Source: Pyrobaculum sp. | GTDB lineage: Archaea; Thermoproteota; Thermoprotei; Thermoproteales; Thermoproteaceae | Direction: 5' to 3' | Assembly (NCBI GenBank): GCA_046293555.1 | Contig: JBKBOT010000017.1 | Location: 1-31,409 of the forward strand | DNA: 31,409 nt | Part shown: in pieces, positions 808 through 30,626 of the stretch | How the letters are laid out: each line of letters begins with the position of its first letter | Position numbering within the stretch: position 1 is the stretch's first letter | The notes under the pieces: model-generated | Told to the model about the DNA's origin: nothing | Databases searched by the model: none | Seen by the model: the letters and a program-made list of their open reading frames with translations, nothing else | Made by a program: the position numbers and the translations under genes

Positions 808-2493
808 AATTTCGAAGTCCTGGAGGCGGCCTTCTGCCTCCTCCCACCTCACCTCTACCACCCTACATTGAAAGCCCCTACAGAGCTCCTCTATGAACTT
901 CCCCACCCTCTCCCTGTCTCCCTCAGCCACCACCTCCACTCTGCCGTCTGGCAGGTTTTTGGCGTAGCCCGTGAGCGCCAGGGCTTTTGCCCGCGCCCGC
1001 GCCGTGGGCCTAAAGCCCACACCCTGCACCTCGCCTTCTACCAACGCCACGGCTCTAGCCGCCTTGTCTACCACCCTCGCGAGGCCGCCTAACACCCTTG
1101 TGGCTAGCTTCTCTCTAAGCTTGTGGCTTGAGATGTAGACAAGGGCCTCTTCGGGCACAATAAGCCTGCCTGCCCCCTTGCCTAACACCTCGCCTATCGC
1201 CATGGGCTTTAGGTGTCTTATCTTGGCCAGCCTGTCTAGTATCTCCCCAGCCACCTTCTTGTGGGCAAAGATGGCCACCGCGCCGTTAGTGCCGGCGGTG
1301 GCGTCTGACATGACGTAATTCTCGGCGGCAAATTTAGACACCCTGTGTGACATCAGGGGGATGTCGGCCAGCTTTATGTCTACCCCAGCCCGCTCCGCCA
1401 CCTCTTTAAAGACAAAAACGCCGGGTCCCGACACGTCTATAGTGGCGGCGATGTGGGCCTGGGGGTCGAAGGGCTTGCCCAGTTCTGGCAGGTAGTCATA
1501 TATAACCCTGGCTACCTCCAGGTTGGGGGTGGCCATTATTTCCAACACTTTCTTCTTTTCTCTTTCAAACTCCTCTATCGGCATGACCTCTTTTTCGAAC
1601 TTCCTGTATAGCCCCTCGTCTGTATGTATGGCCACATATGTGGTGAAGTAAGCCAACTCGCCGAAGGGCCTAGTTATTAACACCACAAAGTCTTTTACAA
1701 TCTTGTCGTAAAATAGCGGCGGCTCTTTATCTAAAACGGCGTAGGCGGTGGCGCCAATTAGCAAATAGCCCCGCTGGGGCTGGGGGACCTCCACATATCT
1801 GCCCAACGTCGAGATGTGTTGTCTCACCCTGGCCTCGAGGGAGCTGCGGTACTGCGGCGGGGCGTCGTAAACCGGCGCGATGTGGAGATCCCTATAGGCG
1901 CCCTTGGAGTAAAGATCATTTAGGGCGTTGTTTATCGCCACGGCCACCTGTAGCGGCGAGTCGAAATCCTCGGAGGGGTCTATCACCTGTATGGTGTCGT
2001 TATTAGCCACCACGTATCCCTGTTGGCCCTCCGTCTTGAGGAAATCTACCATAAAGAACTCAGAGCCCTTCTTGGTGCTCACTATGCTATGACCTTTCCC
2101 GAGCCACACCTTGTGTCTAGAGGAGCCAAGAGCCTTATATAGGTTGGCCACATATCTTGCAAAAACCTCTGGCGTCCCCGCTTTGCCCATATATATTTGT
2201 ACTAACACGATGGCTACAGTGGGGGCAAACTTCTCGATAAATTCCGGCTCGATGGCGGGGCTCTCCACGTCGAGATATAGCCGTCTTAGCTCGGCATATT
2301 GGCCCGGCATTATGGCGGCGTCTTCCCTCGGCGCAATCACCAGGTTTAGCTTACGTACCTCGTCTTTTAGAAGCTGGAGGGCTGGATAGAGCACGTTGTA
2401 TAGATCCACCTTGACTGAACAGCCTAGCGAAAGCGACTCCAGCGCGATGCCCGCCTCGCGGTATAGCTTAACTCTCTCTCTAAACCGCTCCAT
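802..2493 (-). CDS. SelD-like (selenophosphate synthetase/AIR synthase superfamily) protein fused to a C-terminal acylphosphatase domain
   Basis: N-terminal GCSVKV (Cys-x-x-Lys as in SelD), [24 protein letters not shown]-terminal [11 protein letters not shown]...[17 protein letters not shown] acylphosphatase signature. ATG at 2493 overlaps the tusA TGA. Confidence 0.88.
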
Positions 2494-2732
2494 CACCTCT
2501 TCCTAATCCTGATCTTCCAGACCCCCGGCTCTACCTCCTCCACGCCCAGCACCTCGTGTCCCTCCCGTCTCGCCACAGCTGGCACGTTTTCACAGCTGGG
2601 GGGATTGTCTGTAATTATTTCCACCACGTCGCCGCTTTGCGCCTCCCGGAGGGCCTTCAACGTGGCCAGCTGGGGGTACGGACAGACGTATCCCCTCAGG
2701 TCTAGCACCACTCTTGACACAAGTCCAGTCAC
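2493..2732 (-). CDS. tusA: TusA/SirA-family sulfur carrier
   Basis: [11 protein letters not shown] (CPxP motif) and [10 protein letters not shown]; start inferred at GTG 2732 (alternative 2720), downstream of the TATA-like TTTTATA at 2760-2754. Confidence 0.9.
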
Positions 2733-2820
2733 GTCCCCATCTCTACCCCACAATATAAAAATTTCTAGAAGTGAAAAAATTGCCCACCAAGACGACAAAT
2801 GTACATAATTCCGGCCGGCC

Positions 2821-29081: not shown

Positions 29082-29162
29082 GCCCCTCCCTCAGATATGT
29101 TTTTAAATATTGTTACTAGACGTGTTTTAATAAGGCTTATTAAGCACTGTAGGCAGCTCTCT

Positions 29163-30626
29163 ATGGCGCATGAGGTTGTGGAGTTTAAACTAGGTGACAC
29201 CTCACATATCAAGGCCTTTAGGGCTAAGGAGGACTTAGTTAAAACTCTCCACGCCAGGGTGGGGCTGGAGATGCCTAAAGACCCGCTTCAACACATAAAG
29301 AAGAGACTTAGGGAAGAGGTGGGGAGAAACAGGAACCTAAAGATGGCGGTAGATGTCTGCGTACACTGCGGCGTCTGTCTAGACAACTGCCCCACCTACG
29401 TGCGTACAAAAGATATCTACAACTCGCCGGTAGGCCGCGCCGAGCTTGTACGATCTGTCTTAAAGGCAGATTCAGCCGGCGGCAAGATCTTTGGCCCGTT
29501 GGTGGGAGCAAAAAAGCTAGATGAGACACAGCTAGAGAAGATATATACATATTACTACCAGTGTCTTGAATGTAGGAAATGTGCCTACGCCTGTCCCTTT
29601 GGCATAGACCAAGCTGATGTCACCAGGGCGATTAGAGACGTGATGTATGAGGCTGGCGTCGTTTCGAGATATGTGGTCACAGTTATAGACGCAGTGGAGC
29701 GGACTGGGACAAATCTAGGCATGAAGCCTCTGGCTATCATAAAGTCCATCACCTTTGCCGCCGGCGAGATAAAAGAGGAGAAAAAGGTAGAGGTGGATTA
29801 TTACATCTATAGAGACGACCAGGGGAAGATGTACAAGTTTAAGGCAGATAAACAGGTGGGAGAGGTCGCCAGGGAGTCTGGCGACTGGCCGGAAGCCTTG
29901 TTGTTACCCCCCTCTGCGGACTTCTTTACAAACTTGGAGACTCTAAAGGGCTATATGCTCTTTCTACATCTAGTAGGCGTCAAGTATGCCTACTCTACAG
30001 AGATTGCCGAGGCGGCTAACTTCGGCCTTTTTGTCAGCGAGAGACATATGAAGTACATAGGGCAGAAGGCGGTAAATGCCGCCTTAAAGCTAGGCGTTAA
30101 GTATGTAATTGCCGGCGAGTGTGGCCACGGGTGGCGTGCCTTTAAGAACTACACGGGGCCGGAGCTAGAGAGACACGGCGTAAAGACTATGCATATCTTC
30201 CACCTGGTGATAGACGCCATCAAGAGGGGGAAGATCAAGCTAGACCCGGGGGCAAATGGCGATATTGTCTACACCTTCCAGGACTCTTGTAACTACGCCA
30301 GAGGGGGTGACCTCACGGAAGAGCCCCGTTTCATCATACGCCATGTGGTTAAGAAGTTTGTAGAGTCTCCTAACAACAGGGAGAAGACGTGGTGTTGTGG
30401 CGGGGGCGGCGGGCTGTTAACAGAAGAGCTGCTCCCCCTACGGATACAATACGCCAAGAACTGGTATGAAGACGCCGTGAAGGTTAATGCAGATCACGTG
30501 GTGAGGGCATGTGCCATATGTAAGGCACAGCTCAGCCACGCGACCCCCCACCTAAATAAAGAATACGGCAGAAACATAACCTACTCAGGTCTCATGGACC
30601 TGGTGTATAAAGCCATCGTTATGTGA
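29163..30626 (+). CDS. dsrK: DsrK-like (HdrD-family) Fe-S/CCG-domain protein
   Basis: CVHCGVCLDNCP, CLECRKCAYACPFGID, GECGHGWR, DSCNYARG, CCGGGGG, CAICK; start at ATG 29163. Confidence 0.88.
   Translation: MAHEVVEFKLGDTSHIKAFRAKEDLVKTLHARVGLEMPKDPLQHIKKRLREEVGRNRNLKMAVDVCVHCGVCLDNCPTYVRTKDIYNSPVGRAELVRSVLKADSAGGKIFGPLVGAKKLDETQLEKIYTYYYQCLECRKCAYACPFGIDQADVTRAIRDVMYEAGVVSRYVVTVIDAVERTGTNLGMKPLAIIKSITFAAGEIKEEKKVEVDYYIYRDDQGKMYKFKADKQVGEVARESGDWPEALLLPPSADFFTNLETLKGYMLFLHLVGVKYAYSTEIAEAANFGLFVSERHMKYIGQKAVNAALKLGVKYVIAGECGHGWRAFKNYTGPELERHGVKTMHIFHLVIDAIKRGKIKLDPGANGDIVYTFQDSCNYARGGDLTEEPRFIIRHVVKKFVESPNNREKTWCCGGGGGLLTEELLPLRIQYAKNWYEDAVKVNADHVVRACAICKAQLSHATPHLNKEYGRNITYSGLMDLVYKAIVM

What the first reader, a model, noticed from the sequence alone, without database searches (positions are those of the whole stretch)
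2493..30626. Mixed oxidative/reductive gene set: possible archaeal sulfur disproportionation or reversible Apr/Sat
Seen together: YeeE/YedE, TusA, two DsrE, FccB-like and AprM-like genes (partners common in sulfur oxidisers), plus a Ttr-type reductase, DsrABC, DsrK, intact AprBA, Sat and TauE. qmoAB, dsrD and dsrL are absent from the window. Known: YedE-TusA-DsrE clusters and Ttr-like molybdoenzymes have been proposed as markers in sulfur-disproportionating bacteria, and most Pyrobaculum do not respire sulfate. Inference: Apr/Sat may oxidise sulfite to sulfate, yielding ATP or detoxifying, while Dsr reduces it.
Basis: inference. Interest (0 to 1): 0.7.

Follow-up and report, generated by a model that had tools for sequence, protein, structure and literature searches.

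The report
Pyrobaculum sulfur island with Qmo-less Apr/Sat
This hot-spring archaeal contig carries the sulfite-reducing gene set already known from Pyrobaculum and its relatives, next to a sulfate-activating module whose working direction is still unknown and may well be sulfite oxidation.

Summary
All the named genes are at the stated coordinates. The window is a whole contig of a 96%-complete Pyrobaculum-genus MAG. That genome has no QmoA/B flavoprotein, no true QmoC, no DsrD and no GltD/DsrL-type protein.

The right half, DsrABC-DsrE-AprBA-TauE-Sat-DsrN-DsrK, is the Thermoproteaceae island already described in papers and shared with cultured P. oguniense. The left half (YeeE/TusA/DsrE/FCSD-like) and the Ttr-like enzyme are not conserved neighbours. 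The "mixed set" is therefore partly an accident of this contig.

New here:
- A 6-TM protein of no named family sits beside aprBA in 17 of 17 AprA-bearing genomes among the 29 of the family, and in 0 of the 12 without AprA.
- AprBA, Sat and this protein are under strong purifying selection.
- Four genomes keep the module but have no siroheme sulfite reductase of any kind. In two of them aprA gives pN 0.021 against pS 0.598.

This favours Apr/Sat as an independent, quinone-linked module, probably oxidising sulfite. Disproportionation remains speculative. Verdict: new member of a known kind, moderate interest.

The parts
802..2496 (-). SelD-related 'HyperS' putative sulfur-metabolism protein fused to an acylphosphatase domain; its start overlaps the tusA stop by 4 nt
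   Evidence: NF038049 659 bits (cut-off 250) and PF00708 78 bits
2493..2798 (-). TusA-family sulfur carrier (CPYP motif); the true start is probably internal
   Evidence: PF01206 89 bits; sequence
2821..3183 (-). DsrE-fold protein a (weak match)
   Evidence: PF02635 30 bits; 31% paralogue on C5
3233..5824 (.). ABC transporter: PhnD-like binding protein (3233-4252 -), ATPase (4494-5111 +), PhnE-like permease (5105-5824 +); substrate unknown
   Evidence: PF12974, PF00005, PF00528; TIGR01098 and TIGR01097
5840..6877 (-). YeeE/YedE (Sulf_transp) membrane transporter; rare in the family
   Evidence: PF04143 114 bits; found in 3 of 29 family genomes
6868..7611 (-). 247-aa protein with a hydrophobic N-terminus, no family; lies between the FCSD-like gene and yeeE
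   Evidence: no Pfam or NCBIfam hit; sequence
7614..9002 (-). Tat-exported FCSD/type III SQR-like flavoprotein with a Thr-rich linker
   Evidence: PF21706 and PF07992; NF049943 118 bits, below cut-off; RRDFLK N-terminus
11416..16699 (+). TtrB-like 4Fe-4S subunit (11416-12054), NrfD/TtrC-like membrane subunit (12051-13181), TtrA-like molybdopterin subunit (13178-16699); both soluble subunits have Tat-type N-termini. Substrate could be tetrathionate, arsenate or selenate
   Evidence: NF011569 200 bits, PF03916, NF011567 434 bits against cut-off 1750; N-termini; orthologues of 68-83% identity in 7 other genomes, near apr/sat in 1
16767..17102 (-). DsrC with both conserved C-terminal cysteines
   Evidence: TIGR03342 122 bits (cut-off 53.5); sequence ends C-x10-C-V
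17168..17536 (+). DsrE-fold protein b, a conserved member of the dsrAB-dsrC cluster
   Evidence: PF02635 80 bits; 85-89% orthologues: between dsrB and dsrC in L006 and L009; in L008 it lies apart from any dsr gene in the stretch held
17537..18016 (-). 159-aa protein whose start overlaps the dsrB stop by 4 nt; no family; two invariant cysteines
   Evidence: conserved after dsrB in L006 and L009; alignment A3; AF2 model pLDDT 92 with no clear fold match
18013..20387 (-). DsrB (18013-19158) and DsrA (19155-20387), dissimilatory sulfite reductase
   Evidence: TIGR02066 441 bits (cut-off 341.5); TIGR02064 425 bits (cut-off 392.85)
20512..21405 (-). 297-aa Thermoproteaceae-specific protein with six hydrophobic stretches, transcribed divergently from aprBA; proposed quinone-side partner of AprBA
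   Evidence: NF038018 QmoC positions 153-355, 39 bits; 31 homologues, none with a family name; beside aprA in 17 of 17 genomes; dN/dS about 0.09
21488..23858 (+). AprB (21488-21976) and AprA (21978-23858), APS reductase
   Evidence: TIGR02060 144 bits and TIGR02061 708 bits, both over cut-off; active-site residues conserved; AprB has Ala at Trp-B48
23816..25062 (+). TauE/TSUP anion permease (23816-24736) and a 109-aa hydrophobic protein (24733-25062)
   Evidence: PF01925 117 bits; both conserved in L006; sequence
25114..26822 (+). Sat, ATP sulfurylase (25114-26475), and a DUF6955 protein (26472-26822) that follows sat in every locus checked
   Evidence: NF003166 464 bits (cut-off 387); PF22271 98 bits; sat-DUF6955 adjacency in 9 of 9 loci that hold both ends
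27070..29081 (-). Uroporphyrinogen-III C-methyltransferase (27070-27756) and a CobB-family a,c-diamide synthase taken as DsrN (27741-29081): sirohaem/siroamide supply
   Evidence: PF00590 153 bits; TIGR00379 414 bits; conserved beside dsrK in L006. The DsrN name is by position and by the DsrABCMK(N) set of PMC10504309
29097..30626 (+). DsrK-like HdrD-type Fe-S/CCG protein; the likely start is about 20 codons in
   Evidence: NF045796 325 bits against cut-off 400; PF02754 and PF13183; 82% orthologue in L006

Best explanation
The contig joins several respiratory sulfur modules of a facultatively aerobic Pyrobaculum-genus archaeon.

(1) An archaeal-type minimal Dsr system: DsrAB, DsrC, DsrK, a DsrN-like amidase and a sirohaem methyltransferase here, and a NarI-type DsrM on contig C32. 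It reduces sulfite to sulfide using menaquinol.

(2) A self-contained AprBA-Sat module. Its conserved companions are a lineage-specific protein with six hydrophobic stretches, which stands where QmoABC or AprM stand elsewhere, and DUF6955. In this lineage a TSUP/TauE permease is added.

Inference: the membrane protein links AprB to the quinone pool. The module's selected job is to oxidise sulfite to APS and then to sulfate plus ATP. The sulfite would come from thiosulfate cleavage by the Phs/Psr-like enzyme on C29, or from outside. The electrons would go to the quinone pool and from there to the haem-copper oxidases, or back to Dsr/Phs, which would amount to disproportionation.

(3) A Tat-exported Ttr-family molybdoenzyme and a YeeE/TusA/DsrE/FCSD-like uptake and relay set. 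These are variable accessories that happen to lie alongside in this lineage.

Shown: gene identities, absences, co-occurrence and selection. Inferred: quinone coupling, direction and electron sinks.
For: DsrM: a NarI-type 252-aa protein on C32, 70% identical to the P. oguniense protein encoded next to dsrC.

No Qmo, DsrD or DsrL-type protein in a 96%-complete genome. HdrA/QmoAB-like genes occur in only 1 of 29 family genomes.

The membrane protein is present in exactly the 17 of 29 genomes that have AprA. It always lies 609-661 bp from the aprA match, with aprB between them. It was present in 5 of 5 named loci.

Purifying selection, window against relatives: aprA dN/dS 0.03-0.06, aprB 0.03-0.07, sat 0.03-0.08, membrane protein 0.09. 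Synonymous sites are near saturation.

AprA residues L70, N74, W234, R265 and H398 (A. fulgidus numbering) are conserved in 10 of 10 sequences.

G021, G023, G024 and G026 have AprBA, Sat and the membrane protein but no DsrA and no NIR_SIR domain at E<=0.01. The control G025 has six. For aprA, G026 against G024 gives pN 0.021 and pS 0.598. G021 branches apart from them in the AprA tree, which fits (but does not prove) two separate lineages without Dsr.

Ten of 11 genomes with COX1 carry AprA. The window's genome has two clear COX1 genes and a weaker third hit. A Phs/Psr-like operon lies on C29, with 56-59% orthologues in all 5 g2 genomes tested.

Literature: sulfite but not sulfate reduction was observed in Pyrobaculum (PMC7174415, passages). 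Sulfate respiration was proven for Ca. [quoted passage not shown]
Against: - No experiment or expression data bears on direction.
- Vulcanisaeta sp. AZ3 has the same AprB type (Ala at B48) and the same membrane protein. Its congener is reported to reduce sulfate, so this enzyme type can run reductively.
- T. tenax was reported to grow on sulfate (PMC3189178, passages; unpublished data there).
- TSUP/TauE permeases can be sulfate importers (PMC5840216, passages).
- Thermoproteaceae AprBA form their own lineage, not the sulfur-oxidiser lineage I (PMC2211403, passages).
- aprA is interrupted in 2 of 17 genomes (G001 has one TAG; G023 is split), so the module is dispensable in some. G023 is one of the four Dsr-less genomes.
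- The 29 genomes are kin, so the co-occurrence counts are not independent.
- Sulfite reductases without a NIR_SIR domain would be missed. Sulfite could also be made for biosynthesis.
- The membrane protein's fold match to NarI/EtfD is weak for a helical bundle, and only three histidines are invariant.
Confidence: 0.5

Rival explanations
1. Apr/Sat runs reductively. Sulfate is imported by the TSUP permease, activated by Sat and reduced by AprBA with menaquinol via the membrane protein. The sulfite then feeds DsrAB, for low-level dissimilatory sulfate reduction or for sulfur assimilation during aerobic growth when sulfide is absent.
For: - A full Sat-AprBA-DsrABCMK set lies on one contig plus C32.
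- DsrAB pairs are the only NIR_SIR proteins in the genome, so they would have to serve assimilation too.
- There is no canonical CysH, only a PRK13795-type 591-aa protein.
- Ten of 11 oxidase-bearing genomes carry AprA, which fits a need to assimilate sulfate in air.
- T. tenax growth on sulfate was claimed (PMC3189178, passages).
- Vulcanisaeta shares the AprB type and the membrane partner.
Against: - Four genomes keep the module without any NIR_SIR sulfite reductase, and aprA is under strong constraint between two of them.
- QmoAB is absent. Sulfate respiration in V. moutnovskia was attributed to Qmo and was not shown for other hyperthermophilic Crenarchaeota (PMC10504309 and PMC8539903, passages).
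Confidence: 0.3
2. The organism grows by donor-free disproportionation of thiosulfate, sulfite or S0. Apr/Sat forms the oxidative branch, Dsr (or Phs) the reductive branch, and the two are coupled through the quinone pool.
For: - Both branches and two quinone-side partners (DsrMK and the membrane protein) are encoded.
- A Phs/Psr-like reductase is on C29.
- Dsr-less relatives pair Phs/Psr-like with Apr/Sat, the minimum needed for thiosulfate disproportionation.
- Bacteria with a complete sulfate-reduction pathway that only disproportionate are known (PMC9676032, passages).
Against: - No archaeon with a Dsr pathway is known to run it other than reductively (PMC10591310, passages).
- The proposed markers are weak or unmet. 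The YTD cluster is not contiguous here and is disputed as a marker (PMC9676032 and PMC13293266, passages). AprB is not C-terminally truncated.
- Oxidases offer a better electron sink.
- Menaquinol-driven thiosulfate reduction is strongly uphill. This rests on my own knowledge and was not computed here.
Confidence: 0.15
3. Apr/Sat is a decaying relic without function, as Meyer and Kuever (2008) proposed for Pyrobaculum.
For: - AprB has Ala at Trp-B48 and lacks the C13-G19 loop, the features used in PMC2211403 (passages).
- aprA is interrupted in 2 of 17 genomes.
Against: - dN/dS is 0.03-0.09 for aprA, aprB, sat and the membrane gene.
- Ala-B48 is invariant in 6 of 6 sequences, including Vulcanisaeta, so it is a clade trait and not decay.
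- All five FAD and active-site residues are kept in 10 of 10 AprA.
- There are no internal stops in 10 of 10 aprA tested.
Confidence: 0.05

Closest known systems
dsr/apr/sat loci of cultured Thermoproteaceae (Pyrobaculum oguniense TE7, locus L009; Thermoproteus tenax as described in PMC3189178)
   Same: The same DsrAB, 159-aa protein, DsrE and DsrC cluster. The same divergent membrane-gene/aprBA pair. AprA is 83% identical, DsrA 85% and DsrB 86%. Qmo is lacking in 28 of 29 family genomes.
   Different: In the window the Ttr-like operon abuts dsrC where P. oguniense has dsrM. dsrM is on another contig. A YeeE/FCSD-like/TusA/DsrE/SelD-related block lies upstream, and YeeE occurs in only 3 of 29 family genomes.
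Sulfate-reducing system of Ca. Vulcanisaeta moutnovskia (Chernyh 2020; not held, known here only through PMC10504309 and PMC8539903)
   Same: Archaeal-type DsrAB and Sat-AprBA. A Vulcanisaeta locus (L010) has the same membrane gene, the same AprB Ala-B48 and the sat-DUF6955 pair.
   Different: V. moutnovskia is said to owe sulfate respiration to type II QmoABC (PMC10504309, passages). The window's genome has no HdrA/Qmo flavoprotein.
AprM-AprBA-Sat sulfite oxidation of lineage I sulfur-oxidising bacteria (e.g. Allochromatium vinosum, as described in PMC2211403)
   Same: A Qmo-less aprBA always accompanied by one integral membrane protein gene. [quoted passage not shown]
   Different: The membrane gene is divergent rather than co-transcribed upstream. 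Homology to AprM is untested, and the only sequence hint is to the QmoC membrane half. AprBA form a separate crenarchaeal lineage (PMC2211403, passages). The oxidative direction is not shown.
YTD (yeeE/yedE-tusA-dsrE-CHP-CHP, i.e. dsrEFH type II) clusters of bacterial sulfur disproportionators and cable bacteria
   Same: YeeE, TusA and DsrE-fold genes lie close together beside reductive-type dsrAB.
   Different: The cluster is not contiguous: a 2.6-kb ABC transporter separates yeeE from dsrE-tusA. No three-gene dsrEFH set was identified. The marker value of YTD for disproportionation is disputed (PMC9676032 and PMC13293266, passages).

Membership tests
Archaeal-type minimal Dsr pathway DsrABCMK(N) (PMC10504309) | DsrA and DsrB sirohaem sulfite reductase subunits | tested here: met
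   TIGR02064 425 bits (cut-off 392.85); TIGR02066 441 bits (cut-off 341.5)
Archaeal-type minimal Dsr pathway DsrABCMK(N) (PMC10504309) | DsrC with two conserved C-terminal cysteines | tested here: met
   TIGR03342 122 bits; the sequence ends C-x10-C-V. The cysteine spacing rule is recalled.
Archaeal-type minimal Dsr pathway DsrABCMK(N) (PMC10504309) | DsrK (HdrD-like, CCG domain) and DsrM (NarI-type membrane protein) | tested here: inconclusive
   DsrK model 325 bits against cut-off 400, with CCG and Fer4 domains. A NarI-type 252-aa protein on C32 scores 41.8 bits on the DsrM model against cut-off 300. It is 70% identical to the protein encoded next to dsrC in P. oguniense.
Bacterial-type reductive Dsr pathway | DsrD present | tested here: not met
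   PF08679: no match at E<=0.1 in the 96%-complete genome. The gene after dsrB is a 159-aa protein whose model gave no listed match to a DsrD structure.
Canonical dissimilatory sulfate reduction (Sat-AprBA-QmoABC-Dsr) | Sat and AprBA | tested here: met
   NF003166 464 bits, TIGR02061 708 bits and TIGR02060 144 bits, all over cut-off
Canonical dissimilatory sulfate reduction (Sat-AprBA-QmoABC-Dsr) | QmoA/QmoB flavoproteins and QmoC | tested here: not met
   HdrA model: only ferredoxin-part hits under 29 bits. QmoC model: best 38.6 bits against cut-off 300.
AprM-dependent APS pathway of sulfur oxidisers (lineage I) | A membrane-integral protein gene always linked to aprBA in Qmo-less genomes | tested here: met
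   17 of 17 AprA-bearing family genomes and 0 of 12 without AprA; 5 of 5 named loci
AprM-dependent APS pathway of sulfur oxidisers (lineage I) | Sequence homology of the membrane protein to AprM | not testable with these tools
YTD / dsrEFH type II cluster | Contiguous yedE-like, tusA, dsrE-like and two conserved hypothetical genes | tested here: not met
   yeeE (5840-6877) is separated from dsrE-tusA (2493-3183) by an ABC transporter. Only one DsrE-fold gene lies beside tusA.
Tetrathionate reductase TtrABC | ttrB-ttrC-ttrA order, Tat export, TtrA-type catalytic subunit | tested here: inconclusive
   The order is B, NrfD-type, A, and the N-termini are Tat-like. TtrA is the best model but scores 434 bits against cut-off 1750. 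The clade also holds selenate and archaeal arsenate reductases (PMC7331816, passages).
Proposed tags of microbial sulfur disproportionation | C-terminally truncated AprB (tag cited in PMC9676032) | tested here: not met
   Window AprB residues 1-145 align to residues 1-148 of the 150-residue A. fulgidus AprB.

The most novel reading that the evidence does not exclude
Thermoproteaceae have a Qmo-independent, quinone-coupled sulfite-oxidising APS pathway, made of AprBA with Ala at B48, a lineage-specific 6-TM partner, Sat and DUF6955. Joined through the menaquinone pool to DsrMK/DsrABC or to a Phs/Psr-type reductase, it would give these archaea a minimal electron loop for sulfite or thiosulfate disproportionation. 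That would be the first Dsr/Apr-based disproportionation in Archaea. In Dsr-less Thermoproteus-like genomes the loop would work without any sulfite reductase.
Probability: 0.15. Interest if true: 0.75.

Novelty: new member of a known kind. Interest (0 to 1): 0.42.

Why it matters
The role of Apr/Sat in Qmo-less Thermoproteaceae has been open since 2007-2008, when it was variously called sulfate-reducing, sulfur-oxidising or non-functional. The question bears on when sulfate reduction, as opposed to sulfite reduction, arose in Archaea.

This contig adds no new kind of system. The comparison made here does sharpen the question in three ways:
- The module is selected for.
- It has one fixed membrane partner of unknown family.
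- It persists where no sirohaem sulfite reductase exists.

Together these make "sulfite oxidation or detoxification with ATP gain" a directly testable hypothesis in cultured strains.

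Tried and rejected
- Complex prediction of the membrane protein with AprB: score 0.03 against a mark of 0.32. No verdict, so it counts neither for nor against binding.
- The look-up of sequencing runs: no RNA holder listed. The only holder is a hot-springs metagenome that may be the source.
- Profile of the membrane protein against PDB sequences: 0 hits at E<=10.
- Foldseek on its model (pLDDT 71.6): nothing at E<=0.001. VIA-align gave EtfD Z 9.7 (rmsd 6.3, 236 aligned) and NarI Z 8.9 (rmsd 5.8, 181 aligned). These are below the level that is convincing for helical bundles.
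- The 159-aa dsrB-coupled protein: the word-based search found only 5 proteins, including itself. Atlas look-alikes (DUF2303) were judged uninformative. Foldseek found nothing at E<=0.001. VIA best Z was 5.5, to type III secretion chaperone/YbjN-like chains. No DsrD structure was among the rows listed.
- Chernyh 2020 and Cozen 2009 are not held. What they say is taken from papers that cite them.
- No supplementary file was opened. The DiSCo tables and the supplements of PMC10504309 may already list per-genome Apr/Qmo/Dsr patterns.
- I considered naming the Ttr-like enzyme an arsenate reductase orthologue. I rejected this as untestable without the reference sequence.
- The 'non-functional Apr' reading was rejected on the selection data.

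Full report
**What the window is.** The 31,409-base window is the whole of contig C17 of a 1.75-Mb assembly of 145 contigs. The assembly is rated 96% complete and 0.14% contaminated. AprA-based loci place it in Thermoproteaceae. The best match is an uncultured Thermoproteales MAG (L006, 93% AprA identity). Next come two Pyrobaculum MAGs (88% and 86%), Pyrobaculum oguniense TE7 (83%) and Vulcanisaeta sp. AZ3 (80%). The only public run holding the stretch is a hot-springs metagenome.

**Check of the observation.** I chose 38 ORFs and scanned them against Pfam and NCBIfam. DsrA, DsrB, DsrC, AprA, AprB and Sat all score above curated cut-offs. DsrK-like scores 325 bits against 400. TtrA-like scores 434 bits against 1750. 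One DsrE-fold protein is clear (80 bits) and the other weak (30 bits).
- DsrC ends with the two cysteines eleven positions apart, and TusA has CPYP.
- TtrA, TtrB and the FCSD/SQR-like flavoprotein start with twin-arginine motifs. The flavoprotein follows this with a Thr-rich linker, so these three act outside the cytoplasm.
- The CobB-family amidase next to a uroporphyrinogen methyltransferase and dsrK is, by position, the DsrN of the 'DsrABCMK(N)' set described in PMC10504309 (passages read).

**Absences.** In the whole genome:
- The best QmoC-model hit is the window's own 297-aa membrane protein, at 38.6 bits against a cut-off of 300.
- DsrD gives nothing.
- The HdrA model finds only ferredoxin-domain pieces under 29 bits, so there is no QmoA/B-type flavoprotein.
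- No Fer4_20 (GltD/DsrL-type) domain is found.
- DsrM is not in the window. A NarI-type 252-aa protein on C32 is 70% identical to the protein encoded directly after dsrC in P. oguniense.
- A second DsrAB pair (55% identity) is split over the ends of C5 and C87.

**What is conserved and what is not.** The right half is conserved. In L006 the order from the membrane gene through aprB-aprA-tauE-109aa-sat-DUF6955, then SUMT, DsrN and DsrK, matches the window. P. oguniense has dsrA-dsrB-159aa, then DsrE, dsrC and dsrM. A DsrE-fold gene is therefore a standing member of this reductive-type dsr cluster, not a sign of an oxidiser.

The rest is not conserved.
- TtrA orthologues (68-83% identity) occur in 7 other family genomes, plus a fragment in G013. 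They lie within 30 kb of apr/sat in only one, G004.
- YeeE is found in 3 of 29 genomes and is unlinked to apr in G007.
- The TtrA clade also contains a selenate reductase and the arsenate reductase of P. aerophilum (PMC7331816 and PMC10100899, passages). The substrate here is therefore open.
- The YeeE-TusA-DsrE set is not a contiguous YTD cluster. The value of YTD as a disproportionation marker is disputed. It occurs in a non-disproportionator (PMC9676032, passages). A 2026 study reinterprets it as dsrEFH type II, marking sulfur oxidation (PMC13293266, passages).

**Is Apr functional?** Meyer and Kuever (PMC2211403, passages) argued that Pyrobaculum AprBA may be non-functional. Their grounds were Ala in place of Trp-B48, a missing AprB loop, and a missing Asn at the FAD in their P. 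calidifontis model.
- The window's AprB does have Ala at B48 and lacks the loop.
- That Ala is invariant in 6 of 6 Thermoproteaceae AprB, including Vulcanisaeta.
- AprA keeps L70, N74, W234, R265 and H398 in 10 of 10 sequences.
- Against five relatives, nonsynonymous divergence is low while synonymous sites are near saturation. dN/dS is 0.03-0.06 for aprA, 0.03-0.07 for aprB and 0.03-0.08 for sat. For the membrane gene it is 0.09, from the one pair where dS could be computed.

The relic reading is therefore rejected. Even so, aprA carries a stop in G001 and is split in G023, 2 of 17 genomes.

**The membrane partner.** The 297-aa protein has six hydrophobic stretches on my reading of its translation. 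The 31 homologues found are named hypothetical or unnamed, and none has a Pfam domain. Those with an organism name are Pyrobaculum or Thermoproteus, apart from one partial record filed under Candidatus Parvarchaeota. C102, H234, H236 and H254 are invariant.

Its only sequence link is to the membrane half of QmoC (E 6e-10). Fold searches put EtfD (Z 9.7) and NarI (Z 8.9) near the top, but at levels that are not decisive for helical bundles.

Across the 29 genomes of the family it occurs in exactly the 17 that have AprA. It always lies 609-661 bp from the aprA match, with aprB between them. In genus g2 it is followed directly on the same strand by sat and DUF6955. A complex prediction with AprB gave no verdict. 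I take it as the quinone-side partner of AprBA. That is an inference from linkage.

**Direction of Apr/Sat.** Family-wide counts, G000 included:

| Feature | Genomes of 29 |
|---|---|
| AprA | 17 |
| Sat | 21 (all 17 AprA carriers plus 4) |
| DsrA | 16 |
| COX1 | 11 |
| HdrA/QmoAB-like | 1 (G009) |

- Thirteen genomes have both AprA and DsrA, three have DsrA only, and four have AprA only (G021, G023, G024, G026).
- Those four have no DsrA at E<=0.001 and no NIR_SIR domain at E<=0.01. The control G025 shows six. Two of the four are single-contig genomes rated 99% complete.
- All four have a Phs/Psr-like molybdoenzyme, as does the window's genome on C29.
- Between G026 and G024, aprA shows pN 0.021 against pS 0.598. 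In the AprA tree these two sit beside Dsr-bearing G025, while G021 groups with P. oguniense. This fits at least two separate lineages without Dsr, though a transfer of the module would also explain it.

A module kept under constraint where its reductive product has no known onward enzyme argues that sulfite is its substrate, not its product. Ten of 11 oxidase-bearing genomes carry AprA. That fits oxidation with O2 as sink, but it equally fits sulfate assimilation in air.

Against the oxidative reading:
- The genomes are kin.
- Non-sirohaem sulfite reductases would be missed.
- G023's aprA is broken.
- Vulcanisaeta shares this AprB type and membrane gene, and a congener reduces sulfate with acquired QmoABC (PMC10504309 and PMC8539903, passages).
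- T. tenax was reported to grow on sulfate (PMC3189178, passages; unpublished data there).

**Verdict on the interpretation.** The step to disproportionation is possible on paper: both branches and two quinone-side partners exist. It is untested, and it competes with oxygen-linked oxidation, because the genome has two clear haem-copper oxidase genes and a weaker third hit. A review states that archaeal Dsr pathways are so far known only as reductive (PMC10591310, passages). My searches for archaeal or Thermoproteales disproportionation listed no paper whose title or abstract start reports it. I read passages of five of them.

**Novelty.** The gene set and the puzzle are in print: PMC2211403, PMC3189178, PMC7174415 and PMC10504309. 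An introduction even counts Crenarchaeota among aprBA-bearing sulfur oxidisers (PMC5099947, passages). This contig is a new member of a known kind.

I did not see three points in the passages I read:
- the strict 17-of-17 pairing with the unnamed membrane protein;
- the sat-DUF6955 pairing;
- the persistence of the module under selection in genomes without any sirohaem sulfite reductase.

I did not open supplements, and the key 2020 paper was not held.

Noticed in passing
window 17537-18016 (-): A 159-aa protein whose start overlaps the dsrB stop by 4 nt sits where bacteria have dsrD. It is conserved after dsrB in L006 and in P. oguniense, which also has a 22%-identical copy after its second dsrB. 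C69 and C103 are invariant. The AF2 model is confident (pLDDT 92), but the best structural match is only Z 5.5, to secretion-chaperone/YbjN-like folds. NCBI names two relatives 'glutathione S-transferase'; no family scan here supports that name.
   Followed up: partly
window 26472-26822 (+); L006, L007, L008, L010, L028, L029, L031, L032: A DUF6955 protein (116 aa) follows sat directly, overlapping or abutting it, in every locus where the sequence after sat is held. It looks like a fixed companion of this Sat, with unknown role.
   Followed up: partly
window 802-2496 (-): A SelD-related 'HyperS' putative sulfur-metabolism protein (659 bits) carries a C-terminal acylphosphatase domain and overlaps the tusA stop. 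It may be part of a TusA/DsrE relay operon. It lies just outside the finding's coordinates.
   Followed up: no
G009:C47:3229-6440: This is the only genome of 29 in the family with HdrA/QmoAB-like genes. Two adjacent frames of 457 and 717 aa score 326 and 484 bits on the HdrA model. The genome also has AprA, so it is a candidate Qmo-bearing Pyrobaculum-genus sulfate reducer.
   Followed up: no
window 7614-9002 (-) and G000:C22:13838-13993: The first 54 residues of the FCSD-like flavoprotein (the Tat signal region) are 70% identical to a stretch on contig C22, which suggests a shared export leader on another protein.
   Followed up: no
G000:C5:1-756 and G000:C87:3-935: A second DsrAB pair, 55% identical to the window's, is cut by contig ends. 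Papers report up to three DsrAB copies in Pyrobaculum and Thermoproteus (PMC3512248, passages).
   Followed up: partly
window 9023-9568 (+): A protein with a dinitrogenase FeMo-cofactor-binding (NifX-like) domain carries a His-rich stretch (HHEHHHGRHG). A 61%-identical copy lies near DsrE and TusA genes in L008. It may be a metal or cofactor carrier.
   Followed up: no
G001:C1:1529072-1530910; G023:C27:9481-11324; G003:C1:1487431-1490934: Interrupted genes in relatives: aprA has one TAG in G001 and is split in two in G023, and the TtrA orthologue has one TAG in G003. I did not check whether these are sequencing errors, decay or recoding.
   Followed up: no
window 10361-11328 (+): Two ORFs of 138 and 184 aa, with no family, lie directly upstream of the Ttr-like operon on the same strand. 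They may be a maturation chaperone or a regulator.
   Followed up: no
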